Shown here one piece after another: positions 7,394 to 47,087 of a stretch of DNA of 64,000 nucleotides. The notes under the pieces were generated by a model that saw only the letters and a program-made list of their open reading frames with translations, was not told the DNA's origin and ran no database searches. The stretch is from Gammaproteobacteria bacterium (lineage in GTDB: Bacteria; Pseudomonadota; Gammaproteobacteria; HK1): the NCBI GenBank assembly GCA_965215295.1, contig OZ244045.1, positions 1,581,518 to 1,645,517 of the forward strand, written 5' to 3'. Numbering within the stretch: position 1 is the stretch's first letter; every line of letters starts with the position of its first letter. Made by a program: the position numbers and the translations under genes.

Positions 7394-7867
7394 TCAGGGC
7401 CGGAGCCCGTCGGAGAAGATCATCGCGATCCCGACGACCACCACCAGGGTGCCCGCAATCTGCATCGCGCCGAGCGATTCCTTCAGCGCGAAGGACGACA
7501 GCAGCATCGTGAGCACCACGGTCCCGGTCACGATCACCGGCACTGCGACGCTCGCGGCGACCGGGCCGGTCCCGCCGACGCCACGGAACAGGTAGAAGTA
7601 CCCGATTTCGGCAAGGCCGATGCACACCCCCGCTCCCGCCGCCCACGCGTACGCGCTCGTGGAGAGCTTCAGCACGTGACCGCCGCGGGCCAGAAGCGCA
7701 AGCGCGAACGCGCACGACGCGGCGAGCGCGGCGAGTTGCAGGCAGATCGTCGCCAGCACGGTCGACGTGGCCACCTCCGGAACGCGAGTGCTCGATACCT
7801 TCACGAGCAGGTTGTATCCGGCGTACAGCACCGTGATCGCGATCAGGAGAAGGATACCGGTCCACAT
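7394..7867 (-). CDS. small EamA-like (DMT superfamily, half-size) membrane transporter
   Basis: 157 aa with about 5 hydrophobic helices. ATG preceded by GGGAGG. Confidence 0.7.
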   Translation of the reverse strand: MWTGILLLIAITVLYAGYNLLVKVSSTRVPEVATSTVLATICLQLAALAASCAFALALLARGGHVLKLSTSAYAWAAGAGVCIGLAEIGYFYLFRGVGGTGPVAASVAVPVIVTGTVVLTMLLSSFALKESLGAMQIAGTLVVVVGIAMIFSDGLRP

Positions 7868-38006: not shown

Positions 38007-38963
38007 ATGACCGCCATGCCGGTCGATCCGCAGATTCGGCAGGTCATCGATGCGTTGGCCGCGTCGGATTTCGCACCCGTCCACCTTCAGACCCCGGAGG
38101 AGGCGCGGGCGCAGTACGTACGGATGGTGGAGGCGCGCGGCATCGTGCCGGCACCGGTCGGGGCGATCGAGGAGCGGACGATTCCGGGTCCCGCCGGCGA
38201 GTTGCCGGTGCGCATCTACCGCCCCGCTCCCGACACCGGAGACCTGCCGGCGCTCGTGTACTTCCACGGCGGCGGGCATGTCGTCGGGAACCTCGACACC
38301 CACGATGCGGTTGCGCGCAACCTGTGCAACGGCGCCGGGTGCGTGGTGGTGTCCGTCGACTACCGGCTCGCGCCGGAGGACAAGTTTCCCGCCGCGGCGG
38401 AGGACGCCCTCGCGGCGGTGCGATGGTGCGCGGAGCGCGGCTCCGGGATTGGCGTCGATCCGCTGCGGATGGCGGTCGGGGGCGACAGTGCGGGCGGCAA
38501 TCTCGCGGCGGTGGCGGCGCTGATGGCACGCGACGCCGGCGGCCCCGCCATCCGGCTCCAGGTGCTCGTCTATCCGGTGGTCGACTACGGCTGCGACACG
38601 GAGTCGTACCGGACCTATGCGGACGGCTACGGAATGCTCGATGCCCGGTCGATGCGGTGGTTTCGCGACCACTACCTGCGCGACGAAGCGGACCGGCTCG
38701 ACTGGCGGGCGGCGCCGCTGCGCGCCGCCGACCTCTCCGGCCTGCCGCCGGCGCTCGTTCTCACCGCCGAGCGCGACATCCTCCATGACGAGGGCGAGGC
38801 GTACGCGCAGCGGCTGCGGGCGGCGGGAGTGGACGTCGAGTACCGGGACTGCGAGGGCATGATTCACGGATTCTTCACGATGGCGCCGATGATCGACGGC
38901 GCGGTGCGGGCCCAAAAGCTGGTGTGCGACGCGATGACGCGCGCGTTCGCACGAACCGCTTGA
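38007..38963 (+). CDS. alpha/beta hydrolase fold-3 esterase/lipase (HSL family)
   Basis: HGGG oxyanion motif (YFHGGGHVVG), nucleophile elbow GGDSAGGN, C-terminal HGF. Confidence 0.9.
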   Translation: MTAMPVDPQIRQVIDALAASDFAPVHLQTPEEARAQYVRMVEARGIVPAPVGAIEERTIPGPAGELPVRIYRPAPDTGDLPALVYFHGGGHVVGNLDTHDAVARNLCNGAGCVVVSVDYRLAPEDKFPAAAEDALAAVRWCAERGSGIGVDPLRMAVGGDSAGGNLAAVAALMARDAGGPAIRLQVLVYPVVDYGCDTESYRTYADGYGMLDARSMRWFRDHYLRDEADRLDWRAAPLRAADLSGLPPALVLTAERDILHDEGEAYAQRLRAAGVDVEYRDCEGMIHGFFTMAPMIDGAVRAQKLVCDAMTRAFARTA

Positions 38964-38995
38964 ATCCCGGCCTGGTATGGCCGTACCGTGAATTC

Positions 38996-39271
38996 ATGGC
39001 CACCGTCACCATAAAGTCGACCTGTTCGCTCGACGCCGAATCCGTGCGGAAGCTGGAAGGCTTGGCGAAGCACTGGAACACGTCCAGGTCCGCCGCGCTC
39101 CGGCGCGCCATTCACACCGCGGCGCGACAGGCGCACTCCGACGACAACGAAGCGCTTGCGGCGCTCGACCGCTTGCAGAGCCGGCTTGCGCTGGATCGAG
39201 GAACCGCCGGAATCTGGGCGGACGAGGTGAGGCGGGAACGCCGGGCGGCGGCGGAACGCAACGCCTCCTGA
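38996..39271 (+). CDS. ribbon-helix-helix type antitoxin (VapB-like)
   Basis: 91 aa. KSTCSLDAESVRKLEGLAKHWNTSRSAALRRAI fits an RHH fold. Followed 8 nt later by a PIN-like start. Confidence 0.6.
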   Translation: MATVTIKSTCSLDAESVRKLEGLAKHWNTSRSAALRRAIHTAARQAHSDDNEALAALDRLQSRLALDRGTAGIWADEVRRERRAAAERNAS

Positions 39272-39279
39272 TCCCGGGA

Positions 39280-39335
39280 ATGATCCACCTCGACAGGAGC
39301 TTTCTGATCCGCGGACTCACCGGAGGCTCTCGGTC
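39280..39335 (+). pseudogene. 5-prime remnant (about 18 codons) of a PIN-domain vapC toxin gene, truncated by a low-GC insertion
   Basis: ATG 39280 gives MIHLDRSFLIRGLTGGSR (VapC-like MIxLDTSxLI with the first acidic residue). Homology stops where GC drops and the REase stop lies (39334). Confidence 0.45.
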
Positions 39336-40005
39336 ATCCAGCCCAAATGTCATCCTTCGACTCCCAATACTTCCTTACCATGTTGAATCGATCGATTCTG
39401 GTTCGAATCTTAAGGATTTCTTTTGGATAGAATTCGGACATCATGTTACATAGCTGCAACATCCACTTCCTTCGTGAATATCCATCGATCACGCGAATGT
39501 CGTTGGAGTTCGCGATCTGAATCTGACCCCAGCCCAGTGCACCTATCGTGAGGCACTTCCAGTCCAGGAATTCGATCGGAGAGAACAGAACCTCAGAGAC
39601 AGTGACCTTCGTACCTTCAACCGAGTATTTGATGATAATTGGAGAGAAGACATTGGCATCCGATTCGTAAAGTTCAGACAGCCGCTTCACCGATGTGAGG
39701 TTGGGCATGTTGAACTGGGTATCCTTCCTGTGCGTCTTGACGTCTACTACGGAGTAAAAGCCTTCCGTGTCGGTGAAGGCCAAATCGGCCATGGCGCGGC
39801 GAGCAAAATTTTTCGAATATTCGTCACACCAATTCCCGAGAAAAGTGTCGAATTCATCTGCTACCAGTGATTGAAGTGCATCGCCAACCGCTCTCGGGCT
39901 ACTCGCCGTTTGCGGCGACAGGAAATCTCGTGAAGAGTTGATATGCCTCTTGATCTTGGAGGCCACCCCGCGATGATGACCTTCGTAATAGAATCTCGAT
40001 TTCAT
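39334..40005 (-). CDS. putative type II restriction endonuclease (family not recognised)
   Basis: Trimmed to ATG 40005, which overlaps the methyltransferase stop (ATGA). 223 aa. Possible PD-(D/E)xK core MADLAF...SVVDVKTH. Low GC by eye. Confidence 0.55.
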   Translation of the reverse strand: MKSRFYYEGHHRGVASKIKRHINSSRDFLSPQTASSPRAVGDALQSLVADEFDTFLGNWCDEYSKNFARRAMADLAFTDTEGFYSVVDVKTHRKDTQFNMPNLTSVKRLSELYESDANVFSPIIIKYSVEGTKVTVSEVLFSPIEFLDWKCLTIGALGWGQIQIANSNDIRVIDGYSRRKWMLQLCNMMSEFYPKEILKIRTRIDRFNMVRKYWESKDDIWAG

Positions 40006-41006
40006 GAGAACAGGCCGTCCTGACGATCGATCGGTTTGGCCCTGCTCGGCCGATTGGAAAACGAGTTTCTTTCCCAGAATATGCCGTCTGCATATCCCTG
40101 GATTGTCGGATCGTCTCTGGCGGCAGCGATCCGTTTCAGCGTCCAGCACAGGTACTCGACGTTGATTTCGACTCCGCACCAGCGTCTTGACAATTTTTCT
40201 GCTACAACCGCGGTTGTTCCACTGCCAAGAAACGGATCAAACACGAAATCTCCCTTCCTGGAGCTCGCCAGTATCAATTTGGCGATCAATTTCTCGGGTT
40301 TCTGAGTGGGATGGTCGGTATTCTCCGGCATCGACCAGAATGGAACTGTCAAATCGGTCCAAATGTTCGACGGATGGGTCAGGCGATAGTTGCCTTCCTT
40401 TTCCCGTCGCCAATCTTTCGGCTCTCCTTTGATTTTGTAAGGAGCGAGAACTTTGCGTTTCAACTTCACCGCCTCGACATCGAAATAATATCTCTCCGAT
40501 TTTGTGCAGAACCAGATGTCTTCCGTGTTGTTCTTCCAGTTCATCTTTGCACCCCGTCCTTTCTCCCGTTCCCAAGTGATTCGATTTCTGATGTGAAGTT
40601 TCGACTCCAGGATCGGAAAGACAAGTGTGGATGTCCTCCAGTCCGAACACACGTAGAGCGTGGCGTTCGGCTTCATCATCGGAATCAGCAAGTCGACGAT
40701 TTCCTCGAACCAGGATCGATATTCATCGTCTTCTTTTCTTCTGAACGAATTTCCATTGAAGTTCTTGGATAGATTGTACGGAGGATCCAAAATCAGGAGA
40801 TCTACGAATTCGGAAGGAAGAAATTTCGCTATTTCGAGAATATTTCCTGCGACGAGACGTCTTTCCAGATCTTGCGGGGCGACCGCCGTATCCAACCGCA
40901 TGATGTCACGAGAAAATCGGACGCTTTCTTCTTCCGTGCACGAAAGCGTTTGATTTCTGGGAGCACGTTTTCGCATGTGAGTGACCGTGTTGAACTGTGG
41001 TTTCAT
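40002..41006 (-). CDS. DNA methyltransferase, N4/N6 beta class (DPPY)
   Basis: LLILDPPYNL catalytic motif, then HPTQKPEKL and VFDPFLGSGTT (beta-class order, CcrM/HinfI-like architecture). Start ATG 41006; alternatives 41030 GTG and 40976. Confidence 0.85.
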   Translation of the reverse strand: MKPQFNTVTHMRKRAPRNQTLSCTEEESVRFSRDIMRLDTAVAPQDLERRLVAGNILEIAKFLPSEFVDLLILDPPYNLSKNFNGNSFRRKEDDEYRSWFEEIVDLLIPMMKPNATLYVCSDWRTSTLVFPILESKLHIRNRITWEREKGRGAKMNWKNNTEDIWFCTKSERYYFDVEAVKLKRKVLAPYKIKGEPKDWRREKEGNYRLTHPSNIWTDLTVPFWSMPENTDHPTQKPEKLIAKLILASSRKGDFVFDPFLGSGTTAVVAEKLSRRWCGVEINVEYLCWTLKRIAAARDDPTIQGYADGIFWERNSFSNRPSRAKPIDRQDGLFS

Positions 41007-41009
41007 GGT

Positions 41010-41046
41010 ATCGCAGCCTCGCCACTTCACTCTTCGAGGCTGCGAT
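41010..41046 (-). promoter_or_regulatory. perfect 12-bp inverted repeat between the UGSC gene stop and the methyltransferase start
   Basis: ATCGCAGCCTCG (41010-41021) and CGAGGCTGCGAT (35-46), 13-nt loop. On the minus-strand mRNA the 3-prime arm holds the only SD-like GAGG and ends 3 nt before the ATG. No U-tract. Confidence 0.4.
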
Positions 41047-41060
41047 CCGGTGTATTCCGG

Positions 41061-41585
41061 TCAGCCGGCGGTGAGCTTCTCCACGATCTCCTCCAGCGCC
41101 TCATCGGCGATGGCCCGAATCTCGTCGTCGGTGCGGTTCTGGATCGGATGCGGGACCCAGACGATCGCGGGCTCGTAGCCAAGCGACGCGGACTGCGCGG
41201 CGGCCGCCTGCCGGAACGCGGTGGTCGCGATCATCACGCCGGGGATCCCTCGTTCATCGAGGTCGAGCATGTCATGCACACTGCACGACGTGCACGAGCC
41301 TCAGTCGGAGAGGGCATCGACGACGACATCGACCTCCTCGGCGATGGTCTGCGAGAGGTCGACCGGCGCGGTGCGGGTGTTGGTGGGCTTCGCGTAGCGC
41401 CTCACAGCGAGCCCACGTCCGACGAAGTGCGATTCGAGCCGGTCGAGAAACGTGTTCCCGCGGGCCTTGCCGATGTCGAGCAGCCCGAGGGTCAGGCCGT
41501 CGAGCGCCGGCGGCGGCGGGCGGCGCCCGCGCCGGACCGGCGAGGACTCCGCTGTCGGGTCGAGCAACCGGATGCCTTCATTCAT
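41061..41585 (-). CDS. UGSC family selenoprotein (in-frame UGA at 41303-41301 read as selenocysteine)
   Basis: Track ORFs 41301..41834 and 41061..41279 share one frame, separated only by TGA. Read-through gives ...VVDALSD-U-GSCTSCSVHDMLDLDERGIPGV. Start ATG 41585 after GGGAGG; alternative 41621. Confidence 0.7.
41272..41297 (-). other. candidate bacterial SECIS hairpin
   Basis: mRNA positions +4 to +29 after UGA: UCGUGCACGU / loop CGUGCA / GUGUGCAUGA. 10-bp stem including 3 G-U pairs, with G in the apical loop. Confidence 0.4.
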
Positions 41586-41703
41586 GGCTTCAACCTCCCG
41601 CATGGTTTGAATGCCTTCCATGGCTTCATCTCCTCCTTGACGGGGGTGCCGCTGAAGGAACCGCCCGCGGTCCATCACCCCCGAGACCCGCCGATTCCCT
41701 GCG

Positions 41704-42135
41704 TTACTCCTGTGGGTACTGTATATCCGGAGTTTCGTTTTCGCGTCCGTCCTGGCACATCGGAATCTTGATGGTGTGCGGATAGATGCGGTGTGCATCC
41801 GTGTGTGCATCCACAATTGCACCGATTCCGCCACCGAAGATGATGTTTCCCCAGATCATGCCTCCCATCTTCGAATCCACCGCATTTACGTAGACCCGCC
41901 CGTCGCGTGTCCTGCACGTGATATGCAGCGGATCATCCGATTTGGGGATGGTCAGAGTCCCTGGCACCTGTACCGAATACTGTCCCTTCTTGTGCTCCAC
42001 CGTGCACTGTGTGCCGTCCGGACATTCCGGGGCGTCGAAATTGATCGTGGACATGTCCTCGTTCACGATGCTCGAACATCCGCCAAGGAGCGCACTTGCC
42101 ACCACCACCCCTGCAATCAAGTTTCTCGGTTTCAT
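41704..42135 (-). CDS. lipoprotein, unknown function
   Basis: Trimmed to ATG 42135 after GGAAGGAG. Lipobox ALLGGC. 143 aa with Gly-rich GNIIFGGGIGAIVD. GC lower than flanks by eye. Confidence 0.75.
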   Translation of the reverse strand: MKPRNLIAGVVVASALLGGCSSIVNEDMSTINFDAPECPDGTQCTVEHKKGQYSVQVPGTLTIPKSDDPLHITCRTRDGRVYVNAVDSKMGGMIWGNIIFGGGIGAIVDAHTDAHRIYPHTIKIPMCQDGRENETPDIQYPQE

Positions 42136-42284
42136 GTTGCTCCTTCCCTTCTTTCGTTCGGATGTGTTGTTCTTCCGTGACGGCACACGAGCCATGCCAT
42201 GATGCATCCGGGAATCACTCCGCCGGCGAGTGTCACCCCGATCACCGCCGCTGCTGCATACCATCGTCTCTTGCCTTGATTCAT
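42132..42284 (-). CDS. 50-aa single-TM small protein
   Basis: Not in track (under 60 aa). ATG 42284 after GGAGAGAAG gives MNQGKRRWYAAAAVIGVTLAGGVIPGCIMAWLVCRHGRTTHPNERREGAT. Stop overlaps the lipoprotein ATG (ATGA). Confidence 0.5.
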   Translation of the reverse strand: MNQGKRRWYAAAAVIGVTLAGGVIPGCIMAWLVCRHGRTTHPNERREGAT

Positions 42285-42296
42285 GTCTTCTCTCCT

Positions 42297-42554
42297 TCAG
42301 CTCGAAGATGGCGCGGTAGTGGAGCGGGACGCGTTCATGCCATGTCGCCGACCCGGGGACAACGCCTCGCCAGTGACAGGATGCGCCATCACCGGCAACG
42401 CGAGCAAACGGCTGCCGAAATACTCCTCCGCTGACCACAACCGCGATCGCGGATAGACGGCTCCTTCCATATCGGCCAACCCCTCTTTGGCCGCCGACGC
42501 CCGGGCCGTTGCGCCGTCCAAGCGCCTGAGCGTGCCGCCTTCACGGCAATTCAC
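42297..42554 (-). CDS. hypothetical 85-aa ORF
   Basis: GTG 42554 overlaps the stop of the thioredoxin-fusion gene (GTGA). Ends 13 nt before the 50-aa ORF. No family recognised; intermediate third-position GC. Confidence 0.25.
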   Translation of the reverse strand: MNCREGGTLRRLDGATARASAAKEGLADMEGAVYPRSRLWSAEEYFGSRLLALPVMAHPVTGEALSPGRRHGMNASRSTTAPSSS

Positions 42555-43978
42555 GTCTTCACCTCCCTGGTGATGGGGCTGGTGCCGCGAGCGCCGCTCG
42601 CCACCCACCCCCCGATGATGGCGCTCATGAGCCCGGCCTCGCCGCCGGCGCGCACGATGTTCAGGCCGCCTTCGCGGAACTTCGGCATCGAATCCTCGAC
42701 GAGCTCCGGCTTCACGCCGACGTCGATGCCGTCCGCCCCGCGCACCAGCTCCGAGCCCGGACGCGTTGTCGCCGCCATGAGCCCGGCCTTGATCCGGGCC
42801 CGGTCCCACCCTCCTTCCTTGAAGATCGCCCAGTGCTCGGGAGAGAGGACGAGGAAGGCGTCGATGGTCTGCACGAGCCTCGGATGGCCAACCGAGCTCA
42901 GCGTCATCGCAAGCGAGCGCGCGAGCGACTCCGGCGTGCGCGAGCCCTCGTCCATGATCGGGCTCAGGCCGCCGGCCCCGAACAGGGTCACCGCCGACAC
43001 GCCGGGCGAGACCCCGCGCTCCACGCTGAGCGGCTGCCAGTCCGGATCGGACTCGTCCTCGGCGAAACACAGGGTGTACTTGCCGGGCCACCCGAGGGTC
43101 GCCCGATCGATCCCGCCCGGCACCCCGCCGCCGACGTTGCGGACCACGAGCTGCAACGCGCGCCCGATGCTCGCATTCGCCCGGTTGCCCGGGCCGAGCG
43201 CGTTCACCCCCGAATTCATTCCGATGCGCCGCGCGACGGGGCCGTTCACCACCACCATCGGACCCGAGAACCAGGTGGTGCAGAGCAGCCCGTGCATCGC
43301 GAACCCGGGTTCGAGCGCCGCCTCCACCACCGCGAGGACGACCGGCATGTACTCGGGCTTGCAGCCCGCCATCACCGCGTTGATCGCGACTTTCTCGACC
43401 GTGCACGGCGCGTGGTTCGGCGGGATCCGGCCGATGGTCTCCTGCGGATCGCGCGGCGTGCCCCCGAGCATGCGCAGCACCCGCACCGGGGTCGGCGGGA
43501 CCACCGGCAGGCCGTCGCTCCAGCCGCGGGAGAAGCACAGCTCGTGCTCGTCCTCCGGAGCGTGCACGTCGATGACGCGCGCCTTCATGGGCGGCGTTCC
43601 GAACGCGACCTCCAGCACCTCCGGCATGCCGGGGTCCACGCTCTTCGAGCCGCACCCCGGCTGAAAATCGGGAAGCGCGGCGCCGAGCGCTCCGAGCCCG
43701 GTCACCCGGGTCCACTCGGCGCGGTCCCAGCCGACGGTGCGCTCCGCCTCGGCACCGCCTTCGAGACGGATGAGGGTCGGCACCGTCTCGATGCCCAAGC
43801 GCCACGACTGCTCCAGCGAGCGGTCGTCGATGGCGCCCACACCCTCCGGAAACGCCGGATCGTCTTGCGTGTAGACGGTCAGATCCATCCCGCTCGCGGC
43901 GATCTCGCGCAGCACCGGCCGCACCAGATCGCAGGTCGGGCAGTCGCGCTTGGCGACGACGATGAAGCTCGCGCTCAC
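42551..43978 (-). CDS. thioredoxin-fold (CPTC) N-terminal domain fused to a ~350-aa domain of unknown function
   Basis: GTG start after GAGGGGA. FIVVAKRDCPTCDLVRPVL is a Trx-like redox motif. I do not recognise the C-terminal domain. Confidence 0.8.
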   Translation of the reverse strand: MSASFIVVAKRDCPTCDLVRPVLREIAASGMDLTVYTQDDPAFPEGVGAIDDRSLEQSWRLGIETVPTLIRLEGGAEAERTVGWDRAEWTRVTGLGALGAALPDFQPGCGSKSVDPGMPEVLEVAFGTPPMKARVIDVHAPEDEHELCFSRGWSDGLPVVPPTPVRVLRMLGGTPRDPQETIGRIPPNHAPCTVEKVAINAVMAGCKPEYMPVVLAVVEAALEPGFAMHGLLCTTWFSGPMVVVNGPVARRIGMNSGVNALGPGNRANASIGRALQLVVRNVGGGVPGGIDRATLGWPGKYTLCFAEDESDPDWQPLSVERGVSPGVSAVTLFGAGGLSPIMDEGSRTPESLARSLAMTLSSVGHPRLVQTIDAFLVLSPEHWAIFKEGGWDRARIKAGLMAATTRPGSELVRGADGIDVGVKPELVEDSMPKFREGGLNIVRAGGEAGLMSAIIGGWVASGARGTSPITREVKT

Positions 43979-44140
43979 CGTCCCCTCGTCCGGGGAGCGG
44001 ACCCGGAGCCCTGACGGCCGCGCCTGTCGACGATGAGGCTGGTGGCGCTCACGACTGCCGAACCTCCCGAATGTGACGCGGTCGCACTTGACGACGGCAA
44101 CGGCGGTGGACGATACGACGACGGGCGACGGAACGCACCC

Positions 44141-44974
44141 TCACAGCAGCTTCGCATGCCGGTCGAGGAGCGGCAGCACCTCGTCGCGCCCCTTCGGCGG
44201 GATGGTGACGAGGGCGCGGAAGACGCCGGCCTCGCGATAGCTGTCGATCGCGGCCGGGTCGCCGGTGGCCCCGAACACCGAGGTCCGGATGGTGTTCACG
44301 TCGCGCCCGGCCCGGTCCGCGAACTCCGCAAGCCGCGCCATCTCCGCCCTGGCGTCCCCGAACGACCGCGTGCGCGGCATCCAGCCTTCGCAGAAATCGA
44401 CCACCCGCTCGAGCGAGTACCTCGTCTCGCCGCCGAGCAGCACCGGCGGACCGGGCCGCTGCACCGGCTTCGGATACGACCAGATGGGGTCGAAGTCGAC
44501 GAACGGACCGTGGTACTCGGGCGTCTCCTCGCGCCACATGGTCTTGATCGCCTTCGCGCGATCGCACATGACCTTGAACCGGTCCTTGAACGTGGTGCCG
44601 TGGTTCTCCATCTCCTCCGCGTTCCATCCCGCCCCGATGCCGAGCTCGAAGCGCCCGCCGGAGAGCAGGTCGAGGGTCGCGCACTCCTTCGCGAGCACGA
44701 TGGGGTCGCGTTCGGTGAGTAGCGCGATGGCGGTGCCGATGCGAAGGTTCTTCGTCGAAGCCGCGGCATAGGCGAGCCCGACGAAGGGATCGACGGTGTG
44801 CTTGTACTCCTCCGGCAACACCGGCCCCCCCGGCCACGGACTCCTGCGGCTGGTGGGGATGTGGGTGTGCTCGGGGACGAAGAGCGACTCGAAGCCGCGG
44901 TCTTCGGCCTCGCGGGCGAGCTCGTCGATGCGGATGGTGTAGCCGGTGGAGAACTGGGTAAGGCCGATGTGCAT
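44141..44974 (-). CDS. LLM class (luciferase-like) flavin/F420-dependent oxidoreductase
   Basis: Trimmed to ATG 44974 (MHIGLTQFST). 277 aa. ESLFVPEHTHIP, LDLLSGGRFELGIGAGW. Confidence 0.85.
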   Translation of the reverse strand: MHIGLTQFSTGYTIRIDELAREAEDRGFESLFVPEHTHIPTSRRSPWPGGPVLPEEYKHTVDPFVGLAYAAASTKNLRIGTAIALLTERDPIVLAKECATLDLLSGGRFELGIGAGWNAEEMENHGTTFKDRFKVMCDRAKAIKTMWREETPEYHGPFVDFDPIWSYPKPVQRPGPPVLLGGETRYSLERVVDFCEGWMPRTRSFGDARAEMARLAEFADRAGRDVNTIRTSVFGATGDPAAIDSYREAGVFRALVTIPPKGRDEVLPLLDRHAKLL

Positions 44975-45900: not shown

Positions 45901-45990
45901 CGTCCTCTCCGGCCTCCGGGCCTCCGATCTCCGGGCCGCCGGGCCGCCGGCGACCCGCCCGGGCCGATCGTCCGCCGTCCGGGGCCTGCC

Positions 45991-46145
45991 GTCGACCCGC
46001 CCGGGCCGAGCCGAGCCGGCGGGGTGGCCGCCGCGGTGGAGCCTGCGGCGCGTCGACCCGTCCGGGCCGGGCCGAGCCGGCGGGGTGACCGCCGCGGTGG
46101 AGCCCGCGGCGCGTCGACCCGCGCGAGCCGAGCCGAGCCGAGCCA
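45991..46145. repeat. 61-bp tandem repeat (2.5 copies) upstream of the hydrolase gene
   Basis: GTCGACCCG begins units at 45991, 46052 and 46113. Confidence 0.85.
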
Positions 46146-46303: not shown

Positions 46304-46702
46304 ATGAACGACTTCAAAGACCATGAGCGCGAGCTGTGGCTTGCGCATGATCCGCGCGTGTACTACCTGCTGTACACGGTGCGCGCCCGCCGGCTCCAGT
46401 CCGAGGCGGTCGGCCACGCGCTCGGTGTGGCGGGACGTTTTCTCGCCCGGATCGGGGCCGTCGCATACCGCCGGATTGCCGCTGCGCTCCGCAAGCGACG
46501 GACGATCGCGCAGCTCCGGCGGCTCGACGACCACCTGCTTTCCGACATCGGCATCGACCGCGGGCAGATCCCCATGATCGCGCAGGGGCTGATCGCACCG
46601 AGCGGCGAGGCGCCGCGGCGGACCATCCCCTCCGGGACGTGTCCGCCGGAGTATCGCGGCGACACCGCGAACGACGCGAAGCCGCCGGCACTCGCCGCCT
46701 GA
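46304..46702 (+). CDS. DUF1127 domain protein
   Basis: RRTIAQLRRLDDHLLSDIGIDRGQI is the DUF1127 signature. ATG after GGACGGAG. Confidence 0.8.
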   Translation: MNDFKDHERELWLAHDPRVYYLLYTVRARRLQSEAVGHALGVAGRFLARIGAVAYRRIAAALRKRRTIAQLRRLDDHLLSDIGIDRGQIPMIAQGLIAPSGEAPRRTIPSGTCPPEYRGDTANDAKPPALAA

Positions 46703-47087
46703 CGCGACGGCGCCGTCAACGGTTCGGCAGGGGCCGGAGGCTCTGCGGTCGGCCCTCCCTCCCCGACCGGAATCCTCCGGCCCGTCTGCCGAAGCCGGCA
46801 AGAACCGCCGCGACCGTGCCTCGCGAACCGGGGCAGGGTCGCTCCGGAACCGGATGCCACGGCATCGCGGAAGCACCGTCAACGGTGACGCGAAGCCGCC
46901 GGCGCTCGCCGCCTGACGCGACGGCGCCGCCAACGGTTCGGCAGGGGCCGGAGGCTCTGCGGTCGGCCCTCCCTCCCCGACCGGAATCCTCCGGCCCATC
47001 TGCCGAAGCCGGCAAGAGCCGCCCCGGCCGTGCCTCGCGAGCCGGGGCAGGGTCGCTCCGGAACCGGATGCCACGGCGTCGCGGATC
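46673..47087. repeat. 214-bp tandem duplication (1.9 copies) that starts inside the last 10 codons of the DUF1127 gene and includes its stop
   Basis: GACGCGAAGCCGCCGGC(A/G)CTCGCCGCCTGACGCGACGGCGCC at 46673 and 46887. Copies are collinear with few substitutions. Confidence 0.9.

What the first reader, a model, noticed from the sequence alone, without database searches (positions are those of the whole stretch)
41061..44974. Minus-strand redox gene run of unknown function: LLM oxidoreductase, Trx(CPTC)-fusion protein, small ORFs, UGSC selenoprotein
All genes from 44974 down to 41061 are on one strand. They are an LLM flavin/F420-type oxidoreductase, a 475-aa protein with an N-terminal thioredoxin-fold CPTC motif fused to a large domain I cannot assign, three tightly coupled small ORFs, and the UGSC selenoprotein. 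The Sec/Cys redox centre, a thioredoxin-like partner and a flavoenzyme together suggest an uncharacterised thiol/selenol redox relay, but none of the components has an assigned substrate.
Basis: inference. Interest (0 to 1): 0.65.

Follow-up and report, generated by a model that had tools for sequence, protein, structure and literature searches.

The report
UGSC selenoprotein with thioredoxin-fused partner
The selenium-containing protein UGSC, whose function has been unknown for about 20 years, sits here with its almost universal partner, a thioredoxin-tagged protein unlike any solved structure, while the neighbouring flavin-type oxidoreductase and the small genes between the two are local additions.

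Summary
The gene run is real. All genes lie on the minus strand: an F420-type LLM oxidoreductase, a 475-aa Trx(CPTC)-fusion protein, small ORFs and a UGSC selenoprotein with an in-frame TGA. The genome carries selA, selB, selD and tRNA-Sec.

Only two genes form a conserved unit. In 80 loci from many phyla, UGSC follows the Trx-fusion gene within 250 nt in 75. The Sec codon is TGA in 73 of 76, with a conserved hairpin after it that the two Cys forms lack.

The large domain ("X") matches no Pfam or NCBIfam family and no solved structure, although the model is confident (pLDDT 91). In other genomes X is fused to UGSC, peroxiredoxin-like domains, a ferredoxin-thioredoxin-reductase subunit or a TrxR-like flavoprotein.

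The LLM gene is a neighbour in this genus only, and it persists in genus members that lack both other genes. The small ORFs are a low-GC lipoprotein cassette inserted between the pair, seen only in this genome.

Best reading: a two-subunit Sec-dependent reductase recharged by its tethered thioredoxin domain, substrate unknown.

This scan has noted the same pair on other DNA many times. The UGSC family, and a fusion of UGSC to an unknown domain, have been in print since 2008.

The parts
42551..43978 (-). Trx-X gene, 475 aa: N-terminal thioredoxin-fold domain, a linker with invariant PGCGS, and the uncatalogued ~340-aa domain X
   Evidence: ORF. No Pfam or NCBIfam family. More than 8000 homologues and 5938 representative clusters. 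Model of residues 100-475: pLDDT 91.2, pTM 0.90. No PDB fold match; best Foldseek E 5.5e-3 with TM <= 0.27.
43931..43942 (-). CPTC redox motif (Cys13, Cys16) of the thioredoxin-fold domain
   Evidence: K10-R-D-C-P-T-C16 is invariant in 14 homologues of 63-89% identity, as is the V66-P67-T68 cis-Pro region. It aligns with the thioredoxin CxxC.
43646..43660 (-). PGCGS motif (Cys109) in the linker between Trx and X
   Evidence: Invariant in alignments A1 and A2. Cys is present in 33 of 36 representatives that cover this segment, which is the N-terminal extension (linker) that stand-alone X proteins largely lack.
43361..43363 (-). Cys206 (motif NAVMAGC), the most conserved cysteine of domain X and a candidate catalytic residue
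   Evidence: Cys in 138 of 142 representatives of the wider X family. Other near-invariant residues are D155, G156, P158, R266, N268, R273, C304 (120/138), E307 and H382.
41061..41585 (-). UGSC family selenoprotein gene, 174 aa: Sec95-G-S-Cys98-T-S-Cys101-S-V-His104
   Evidence: Read-through translation. NF041046 140.6 bits (cut-off 125) and PF24696. It is the only UGSC gene in the genome and has one TGA. Start placed by alignment with genus relatives.
41301..41303 (-). In-frame TGA read as selenocysteine
   Evidence: Same column is TGA in 73, TAG in 1 and TGC in 2 of 76 homologous loci. selA, selB, selD and tRNA-Sec are present.
41272..41288 (-). SECIS-like hairpin core, 15 nt after the first base of the UGA
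   Evidence: A six-pair stem is kept in 44 of 44 Sec-type sequences, with G-U/G-C wobble and one compensatory C-G to U-A change. Third codon positions are frozen (ACG UCG UGC). The two Cys-type genes have lost the stem. The local fold in the window is -31.7 kcal/mol, z = -1.9.
44141..44974 (-). F420-type LLM oxidoreductase (TIGR03619): a genus-level neighbour, not part of the conserved unit
   Evidence: Family hits. cofD is present in the genome. Adjacent to Trx-X in 8 of 8 genus loci, abutting it in 3. Adjacent in none of the 79 loci outside the genus in the broad set. The orthologue persists where the pair is absent.
41704..42284 (-). Inserted cassette: 50-aa membrane-like ORF (42132-42284) overlapping the start of a 143-aa lipoprotein gene (41704-42135)
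   Evidence: GC3 is 0.51 and 0.67 here, against 0.88-0.93 in the flanking genes. The cassette is absent from this position in all 8 genus loci. Lipoprotein homologues sit in unrelated contexts. The stop-to-start spacer is 965 nt here, against a median gap of 14 nt between the matched protein segments in other loci.
42389..42544 (-). 51-aa Arg-rich ORF, probably not a gene
   Evidence: ORF only. No family match. GC3 0.64, unlike native genes.

Best explanation
The functional unit is two genes, not the whole run. They are the Trx-X gene (42551-43978) and the UGSC selenoprotein gene (41061-41585).

Proposed mechanism:
1. Domain X is the substrate-binding subunit. It has a polar, invariant site (D155, R266, N268, R273, K300, E307, H382) and two conserved cysteines (C206, C304). 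This role is inferred.
2. UGSC supplies the redox centre, Sec95-x-x-Cys98 (plus Cys101 and His104). In the manner of selenoprotein B of the glycine and D-proline reductases, the selenol attacks the bound substrate or a cysteine adduct, and the centre ends as a Se-S bond. This step is inferred.
3. The tethered thioredoxin-fold domain (Cys13/Cys16), possibly via the linker Cys109, reduces that bond again. This step is inferred from fusions.
4. The donor that reduces the Trx domain is not encoded locally.

Shown: gene pairing, fusions, Sec decoding and conservation.
Inferred: the physical complex, the direction of electron flow and the chemistry. The substrate is unknown.

The LLM gene is a genus-specific neighbour that may be co-transcribed, but it is not needed by the pair. 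The lipoprotein cassette is a recent insertion that splits the otherwise tightly coupled pair in this genome.
For: Pairing:
- UGSC lies within 250 nt downstream of Trx-X in 75 of 80 loci from Proteobacteria, Actinomycetota, Chloroflexota, Acidobacteriota, Myxococcota and Spirochaetes. Two of the five exceptions are contig ends.
- The median gap between the matched segments is 14 nt, and several overlap.
- Within the genus, the pair is present together in nine species, counting the window's own, and absent together in G006 and G011.

Fusions:
- Of 62 long representatives of the X family, 23 carry UGSC, in either order and mostly truncated at the TGA by gene callers.
- Eight carry AhpC-TSA/Redoxin, two Thioredoxin_8, two FeThRed_B, and one a TrxR-like Pyr_redox_2 domain with CAVC.

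Selenocysteine:
- Sec codon in 73 of 76 loci. The SECIS-like hairpin is conserved only in the Sec forms. The Sec machinery is present.
- selA or selA-selB directly follow UGSC in 7 loci.

Link to selenoprotein B:
- UGSC aligns weakly with the Sec region of GrdB and GrdF (E 4e-4).
- It also aligns with a PrdB-like profile, with U on U, C on C and RGIP on RGIP.

Domain X:
- Confident model (pLDDT 91).
- Enzyme-like invariant residues.
Against: - No experiment exists on either protein.
- The similarity to GrdB/PrdB is weak (hhalign E 0.005, probability 7%), so the chemistry rests on a motif.
- No pyruvoyl-type partner was recognised. Domain X matches no Pfam or NCBIfam family (which include the GrdE family) and no solved structure, so 'substrate-binding subunit' is an inference.
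- A TrxR-like gene lies within 6 kb in only 2 of 80 loci, and none lies in the 64-kb window. The source of electrons is therefore open. An earlier check in this scan (e1-1113801) also found no trxB enrichment.
- The pair can be split: in G007 the two genes are 3.8 Mb apart.
- Many X paralogues stand alone.
- In this genome the 965-nt insert may uncouple expression.
Confidence: 0.6

Rival explanations
1. LLM flavoenzyme, Trx-fusion protein and UGSC form one three-part relay, in which the LLM enzyme feeds electrons (from F420H2 or FMNH2) to the thioredoxin domain and then to the Sec centre.
For: All genes are on the same strand. LLM abuts or overlaps the Trx-X start in three genus members and is adjacent in 8 of 8 genus loci. 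The genome has cofD, so F420 is probably made.
Against: LLM is adjacent in none of the 79 loci outside the genus. Other genera of the same family have the pair without LLM nearby. G006 and G011 keep a 75-76% identical LLM orthologue but lack both Trx-X and UGSC. From general knowledge of the family, LLM enzymes transfer hydride to small substrates and are not known to reduce disulfides.
Confidence: 0.07
2. UGSC is a metal, metalloid or Fe-S binding site rather than a redox-cycling Sec/Cys pair. U95, C98, C101 and H104 (UxxCxxCxxH) would ligate a metal or cluster. X/UGSC would then be a metalloenzyme or a handling or detoxification protein for a chalcogen or metal.
For: D-U-G-S-C-T-S-C-x-x-H is almost invariant, with all four candidate ligands conserved in 30 of 30 or at least 90% of sequences. 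CxxCxxC spacing is typical of cluster-binding sites (general knowledge). Two X fusions carry the Fe-S subunit FeThRed_B.
Against: The fusion partners of X are overwhelmingly dithiol-disulfide exchangers: Trx, Redoxin/AhpC, and a TrxR-like domain. No metal transport or resistance genes recur next to the pair.
Confidence: 0.15
3. The pair is a general antioxidant or protein-disulfide/peroxide reductase. UGSC would act like a Sec-peroxiredoxin or SelW-type protein, with X as a scaffold or regulator and no dedicated small-molecule substrate.
For: X is fused to AhpC-TSA/Redoxin domains in 8 representatives. UxxC motifs are typical of thiol oxidoreductase-like selenoproteins (PMC2398784).
Against: X is a 340-aa domain with many invariant polar residues (R266, N268, R273, K300, E307, H382, D155), which is more than a scaffold would need. 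The family is very large and has many paralogues per genome (up to 11 matches in G013), as expected for substrate-diversified enzymes.
Confidence: 0.12
4. In this genome the module is uncoupled or decaying because of the lipoprotein insertion, so what is seen is a relic.
For: The stop-to-start spacer is 965 nt, against a median of 14 nt between matched segments elsewhere, and only L070 (4.9 kb) is larger among the 76 comparison loci. A second foreign island (restriction-modification) lies directly downstream.
Against: Both reading frames are intact. The Sec codon and hairpin are intact. GC3 is native (0.92 and 0.88). The inserted genes run in the same direction. No terminator-like site was found in the region.
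Confidence: 0.1

Closest known systems
UGSC family (seleno)protein (NCBIfam NF041046, Pfam PF24696): the 'UGSC-containing protein' of Zhang and Gladyshev, PMC2398784
   Same: The window's 174-aa protein is an ordinary member. It scores above both curated cut-offs and has the UGSC motif with an in-frame TGA and a downstream hairpin. The 2008 paper already reported a fusion of UGSC with an unknown domain ('Unknown_1').
   Different: Nothing differs in the protein itself. In print the family has no function (2026 review PMC13188914), and I found no description there of its partner gene. I could not confirm that 'Unknown_1' is domain X, because the figure is held only as an image.
Selenoprotein B of glycine/sarcosine/betaine reductase (GrdB/F/H with GrdE) and of D-proline reductase (PrdB with PrdA)
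   Same: A UxxC(xxC) Sec motif after a hydrophobic strand, followed by a conserved RGIP turn. UGSC aligns with this region at E 4e-4 (TIGR01917, NF040794) and with a PrdB-like profile with Sec on Sec. Both are two-gene units of a selenoprotein plus a larger partner. In the Grd system, regeneration is by a thiol system (general knowledge).
   Different: UGSC is much shorter (174 aa). It scores far below the family cut-offs (19 bits against 602). Its partner X matches no Pfam or NCBIfam family, the GrdE family among them. The hosts are mostly aerobic heterotrophs rather than Stickland fermenters. No grdA/C/D-type genes lie nearby.
Thioredoxin-fold domains fused to the enzymes they reduce (for example Trx-MsrA/B fusions, from general knowledge)
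   Same: An N-terminal CxxC thioredoxin fold with a cis-Pro region, tethered to a larger catalytic domain. In other family members the same position is taken by Redoxin/AhpC-like domains.
   Different: The motif is CPTC rather than WCGPC. It is not recognised by the Pfam thioredoxin models at threshold. There is an additional invariant linker cysteine (PGCGS).
TIGR03619 (Rv2161c-type) F420-dependent LLM oxidoreductases
   Same: The LLM gene scores 251.8 bits against a cut-off of 166.9, and cofD is present.
   Different: No substrate is known for this subfamily. Its link to the selenoprotein pair is confined to one genus.

Membership tests
UGSC family (seleno)protein | Scores above the curated cut-offs of NF041046 and PF24696 | tested here: met
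   140.6 bits against 125; PF24696 137.7 bits against 25. The genome search gives 130.4 bits with one TGA.
UGSC family (seleno)protein | U-G-S-C motif with Sec encoded by an in-frame TGA | tested here: met
   DALSD-U-GSCTSC at 41301-41303. The same column is TGA in 73 of 76 homologous loci.
UGSC family (seleno)protein | Bacterial SECIS-type hairpin just after the UGA, and Sec machinery in the genome | tested here: met
   Stem kept in 44 of 44 Sec forms and lost in the 2 Cys forms. selA, selB, selD and tRNA-Sec all score above their cut-offs.
Glycine/betaine/sarcosine/D-proline reductase selenoprotein B (GrdB/PrdB) | Scores above the family models (TIGR01917, NF040794, PF07355) | tested here: not met
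   19.4 bits against 602 and 19.1 against 800. PF07355 did not match UGSC in the genome search and found only another gene.
Glycine/betaine/sarcosine/D-proline reductase selenoprotein B (GrdB/PrdB) | UxxC Sec motif homologous to that of GrdB/PrdB | tested here: inconclusive
   Sec aligns on Sec, Cys on Cys and RGIP on RGIP. Statistically the match is weak: hhalign E 0.0025-0.005, probability 7-12%.
Glycine/betaine/sarcosine/D-proline reductase selenoprotein B (GrdB/PrdB) | Pyruvoyl-forming proprotein partner (GrdE/PrdA) encoded alongside | tested here: not met
   The partner is domain X, with no Pfam or NCBIfam match at all. Whether the invariant Cys109 in PGCGS is a self-cleavage site is untested.
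Thioredoxin fold (N-terminal domain of the 475-aa protein) | Thioredoxin fold with CxxC at the start of helix 1 and a cis-Pro loop | tested here: met
   Foldseek probability 1.0, TM (target) 0.5-0.74 to many thioredoxins. The PDB profile hit at E 0.006 aligns CPTC with CxxC and VPT with the cis-Pro region. Pfam thioredoxin models do not reach threshold.
TIGR03619 F420-dependent LLM class oxidoreductase | Score above the curated cut-off, and capacity to make F420 | tested here: met
   251.8 against 166.9. cofD scores 299.6 against 257.45. The other cof genes were not searched.
Any catalogued family or solved fold for domain X | Sequence or structure match | tested here: not met
   Pfam gave nothing recurrent or significant on 76 members even at E up to 10 (best: SDA1_HEAT in 9 of 76, E 0.016). 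NCBIfam gave none. PDB by sequence matched only the Trx part. PDB by fold gave a best E of 5.5e-3 with TM <= 0.27 for a pLDDT-91 model.

The most novel reading that the evidence does not exclude
Domain X plus UGSC is a widespread, undescribed class of two-subunit selenoenzyme with a catalytic fold unlike any solved structure. It would carry out GrdB/PrdB-like reductive chemistry on a small metabolite in aerobic aquatic and soil bacteria and be recharged by tethered or free thiol-disulfide carriers. UGSC would then be the main reason many of these organisms keep the Sec machinery, since selA-selB lie directly behind it in several genomes.
Probability: 0.45. Interest if true: 0.8.

Novelty: new variant of a known kind. 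Interest (0 to 1): 0.55.

Why it matters
[quoted passage not shown] Knowing that it works with one specific, uncatalogued, enzyme-sized partner makes the question directly testable. The fusion partners of X also point to thiol-disulfide chemistry. The practical route is to co-express the two proteins, trap the mixed intermediate and look for a substrate.

For this window the result also corrects the annotation picture. The unit is two genes. The LLM enzyme is a lineage-specific neighbour. The intervening small genes are an insertion.

Tried and rejected
- Family searches on the 475-aa protein and on 76 X domains found nothing. These were Pfam and NCBIfam, also at E up to 10.
- A PDB sequence profile matched only the thioredoxin part.
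- Foldseek with the full-length model was dominated by the thioredoxin domain. With the confident C-terminal model it gave only weak, low-TM hits to Toblerone-fold amidohydrolases, class I fumarase and PurM/SelD-like proteins. I do not take these as homology.
- The UGSC profile against PDB gave nothing meaningful.
- I considered a target-site duplication at the borders of the lipoprotein insert and rejected it. The similar 20-mers are explained by the variable native spacer and start region seen in relatives.
- Conserved neighbours beyond the pair were sought by clustering all ORFs of 80 loci. No family was present in more than 11 loci. CoA-transferase genes lie at variable positions and strands. 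A thiolase gene lies directly downstream in 8 loci labelled gammaproteobacterial (Pseudomonadales, Pseudohongiella and unclassified). selA lies downstream in 7 loci.
- A TrxR-like gene near the pair was found in only 2 of 80 loci.
- The promoter/terminator scan and Rfam found nothing in the region.
- A look-up of lipoprotein homologue P0276 found nothing on record.
- The 2008 figure showing the UGSC/Unknown_1 fusion is held only as an image, so identity with X could not be verified.

Full report
**What is there**

The window is about 70% G+C. On the minus strand between 44974 and 41061 lie six ORFs:
- an LLM oxidoreductase gene (44141-44974);
- a 475-aa gene (42551-43978);
- ORFs of 51 aa (42389-42544), 50 aa (42132-42284) and 143 aa (41704-42135);
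- a gene interrupted by one TGA (41061-41585).

The LLM protein is a clear member of PF00296 and of the F420-dependent subfamily TIGR03619, at 251.8 bits against a cut-off of 166.9. The genome has cofD, so F420 is plausible.

Reading the TGA at 41301-41303 as Sec gives ...DALSD-U-GSCTSCSVHD.... That product scores above the curated cut-offs of NF041046 and PF24696. The genome has selA, selB and tRNA-Sec in one cluster and selD elsewhere, all above their cut-offs. It has only this one UGSC gene.

**The 475-aa protein**

Residues 1 to about 95 are a thioredoxin fold with CPTC at the CxxC position and a VPT cis-Pro region. The rest matches no Pfam or NCBIfam model. This stays true when 76 homologues are scanned at E up to 10.

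The family is nonetheless very large. More than 8000 homologues were found in the word-indexed search, and 5938 clusters at 50% identity in the exhaustive search.

With a 76-sequence alignment, residues 100-475 fold confidently (pLDDT 91.2, pTM 0.90). Foldseek still finds nothing in the PDB better than E 5.5e-3 with TM <= 0.27. I call this domain X.

Across 150 representatives its near-invariant residues are D155, G156, P158, C206 (138/142), R266, N268, R273, K300, C304 (120/138), E307 and H382. That is an enzyme-like set with two conserved cysteines. The linker cysteine in PGCGS (C109) is conserved (33 of 36) in the members whose sequence covers that N-terminal extension, which stand-alone X proteins largely lack.

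**Which genes belong together**

I fetched 80 loci that encode relatives of the 475-aa protein, at 53-84% identity. They come from Alpha-, Beta-, Gamma- and Deltaproteobacteria, Actinomycetota, Chloroflexota, Acidobacteriota, Myxococcota and Spirochaetes.
- A UGSC gene lies directly downstream on the same strand in 75 of them.
- One has it 4.9 kb away.
- Two contigs end at the Trx-X gene.
- Two have none within 6 kb.

The gap between the two matched segments has a median of 14 nt and is at most 60 nt in 59 of 76. This fits translational coupling.

Outside the window's genus, only one locus (L095) has a close LLM homologue, 4 kb away. Five others have weak (26-35% identical) LLM homologues within 6 kb.

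ORF clustering of all 80 loci found no other family in more than 11 loci. The only recurrent immediate downstream genes are selA (7 loci, 4 of them followed by selB) and a thiolase (8 loci labelled gammaproteobacterial).

**Within the window's own genus and family**

In eight other species of the genus the order LLM, Trx-X is kept. The LLM stop abuts the Trx-X start in three of them. UGSC follows in seven. In G007 the UGSC gene lies 3.8 Mb away.

Three other genera of the same family have Trx-X and UGSC without LLM nearby. Their closest LLM genes are 67 kb or more away in the two complete genomes (G015, G016) and on another contig in G013.

Two genus members, G006 and G011, lack both Trx-X and UGSC but keep a 75-76% identical LLM orthologue.

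So Trx-X and UGSC co-occur and are lost together, and LLM is phyletically independent.

**The small ORFs**

No genus relative has anything resembling them between Trx-X and UGSC. The window's stop-to-start spacer is 965 nt, and only one of the 76 comparison loci (L070, 4.9 kb) has a wider separation.

Third-position G+C is 0.92 (Trx-X), 0.88 (UGSC) and 0.93 (LLM). It is 0.67 for the lipoprotein gene, 0.51 for the 50-aa ORF and 0.64 for the 51-aa ORF.

The 143-aa product has a lipobox (LLGGC) and 80 homologues. The closest ones lie in unrelated contexts. One sits next to a transketolase gene in another assembly. Another lies about 800 kb from the pair in G004.

The cassette is therefore a foreign insertion, not a component. 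The 51-aa ORF has no support as a gene. All inserted genes point the same way and no terminator-like site was found, so read-through to UGSC is possible.

**Selenocysteine**

Among 76 UGSC genes next to Trx-X, the Sec column is TGA in 73, TAG in one (L065) and TGC in two.

The 40 nt after the UGA are conserved at the nucleotide level, including third codon positions (ACG UCG UGC AGU nUG CAY GAC). They form a stem of six to eight pairs that starts 15 nt after the first base of the UGA.
- The stem is kept in 44 of 44 Sec forms examined.
- The His codon wobble (CAU/CAC) gives G-U or G-C.
- One compensatory C-G to U-A change is seen in two Marinobacter loci.
- The two Cys forms use other synonymous codons and lose the stem. 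They serve as a natural control.

**How it probably works**

Architectures in the wider X family act as Rosetta-stone evidence. Of the 62 representatives of at least 400 aa:
- 23 carry a UGSC domain, either before or after X and usually cut at the TGA by the gene caller;
- 8 carry AhpC-TSA/Redoxin;
- 2 carry Thioredoxin_8;
- 2 carry the catalytic subunit of ferredoxin-thioredoxin reductase;
- 1 carries a low-Mr thioredoxin-reductase-like domain with CAVC and GGGDSA motifs.

Tandem X-X proteins and stand-alone X proteins also exist.

UGSC itself shows weak similarity to the Sec region of GrdB and GrdF (E 4e-4). It also aligns with a PrdB-like profile that I built from a second selenoprotein of this same genome. 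That alignment places Sec on Sec, Cys on Cys and RGIP on RGIP, but it is statistically weak (E 0.0025-0.005, probability 7-12%).

I therefore propose the following:
- X binds a substrate.
- The Sec95/Cys98 centre of UGSC carries out the reductive step and ends as a selenenylsulfide.
- The tethered thioredoxin domain, perhaps through Cys109, reduces it again.

The upstream donor is not local. A TrxR-like gene lies within 6 kb in only 2 of 80 loci, and none lies in this window. This agrees with a later check recorded in this scan (e1-1113801).

The complex, the electron path and the chemistry are all inferences. The substrate is unknown.

**Rivals**

- A metal or Fe-S site formed by U95, C98, C101 and H104. 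These are all conserved, with CxxCxxC-like spacing.
- A general antioxidant role.
- Functional decay in this genome because of the insertion. Against decay: both frames, the Sec codon and the hairpin are intact.

**Comparison with what is known**

UGSC has been in print since the mid-2000s as an abundant selenoprotein of unknown function. A fusion with an 'Unknown_1' domain was noted in 2008 (PMC2398784). A 2026 review still lists the family as uncharacterised (PMC13188914), and I found no paper on its function. I could not confirm that 'Unknown_1' is X, because the figure is stored only as an image.

The window's UGSC is an ordinary member of its family. It is not a member of the GrdB/PrdB family, whose model cut-offs and GrdE/PrdA-type partner are both missing. 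It may still work like one.

This scan has flagged the same pair many times on other DNA: 335 notes in at least 245 genomes. My results were obtained independently here and agree with those notes on pairing, fusions and the lack of a structural relative.

**Verdict**

The finding is real and the core idea, a Sec centre with a thioredoxin-type partner, holds. The unit is two genes. The LLM gene is a genus-level neighbour. The small ORFs are an insertion.

Noticed in passing
window 39334-41030 (-): A low-GC island (G+C 0.50 against about 0.71) lies directly downstream of UGSC. It holds an N6/N4 DNA methyltransferase gene (40002-41030; PF01555 E 2e-43) and an overlapping 281-aa ORF with no family match (39334-40179). 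This is probably an acquired type II restriction-modification pair. It is absent from this position in genus relatives.
   Followed up: partly
window 38924-39453 (+): A ribbon-helix-helix (CopG-type) antitoxin-like gene (38924-39271; PF01402 E 1.5e-4) is followed by a 57-aa ORF with no family match, which ends about where the low-GC island begins. It may be a toxin gene cut short by the island insertion, but nothing tested here supports that.
   Followed up: partly
own genome G000:C1:2006697-2007662 (L125:1054-2019, -): A second selenoprotein gene, PrdB/GRDB-like, about 321 aa, with an in-frame TGA in the motif LLVPA-U-PVC-HQS (PF07355 32 bits). Full-length homologues elsewhere are Cys forms annotated as D-proline reductase PrdB. 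No PrdA-like gene was seen beside it.
   Followed up: partly
L065 (Candidatus Blastococcus massiliensis AP3), position 7650: The Sec position of UGSC is TAG instead of TGA, although the downstream hairpin sequence is intact. This could be a sequencing error, a recent inactivating mutation or something stranger.
   Followed up: no
L036, L042, L043, L055, L066, L078, L084: selA lies directly downstream of UGSC on the same strand, followed by selB in four of these loci. In those bacteria the Sec machinery may be kept chiefly for UGSC.
   Followed up: partly
L032, L041, L053, L059, L060, L067, L077, L099: A thiolase (acetyl-CoA acetyltransferase-like) gene lies directly after UGSC on the same strand in 8 loci labelled gammaproteobacterial (Pseudomonadales, Pseudohongiella and unclassified). 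This is a possible lineage-specific hint to acyl-CoA metabolism.
   Followed up: no
G007 (L117 and L127): In one genus member the pair is split. LLM and Trx-X lie at 1.84 Mb and the UGSC gene (with its TGA) at 5.64 Mb.
   Followed up: partly
window 45990-46140 and 46673-47085: Tandem repeats lie in the intergenic region between the alpha/beta-hydrolase gene and the MFS transporter gene: a 61-nt unit x 2.5 (91% matches) and a 214-nt unit x 1.9 (95% matches).
   Followed up: no
proteins P0169 and P0239 (representative library): Domain X occurs fused to a ferredoxin-thioredoxin-reductase catalytic subunit (CPC...CPC...CHC motifs) and to a TrxR-like flavoprotein (CAVC). These architectures are rare but informative.
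   Followed up: partly
protein P0084 (569 aa, close relative): An apparent Trx-X/UGSC 'fusion' in a public gene call is a frameshifted read-through that ends at the Sec TGA. It is an example of how gene callers mis-annotate this locus.
   Followed up: yes
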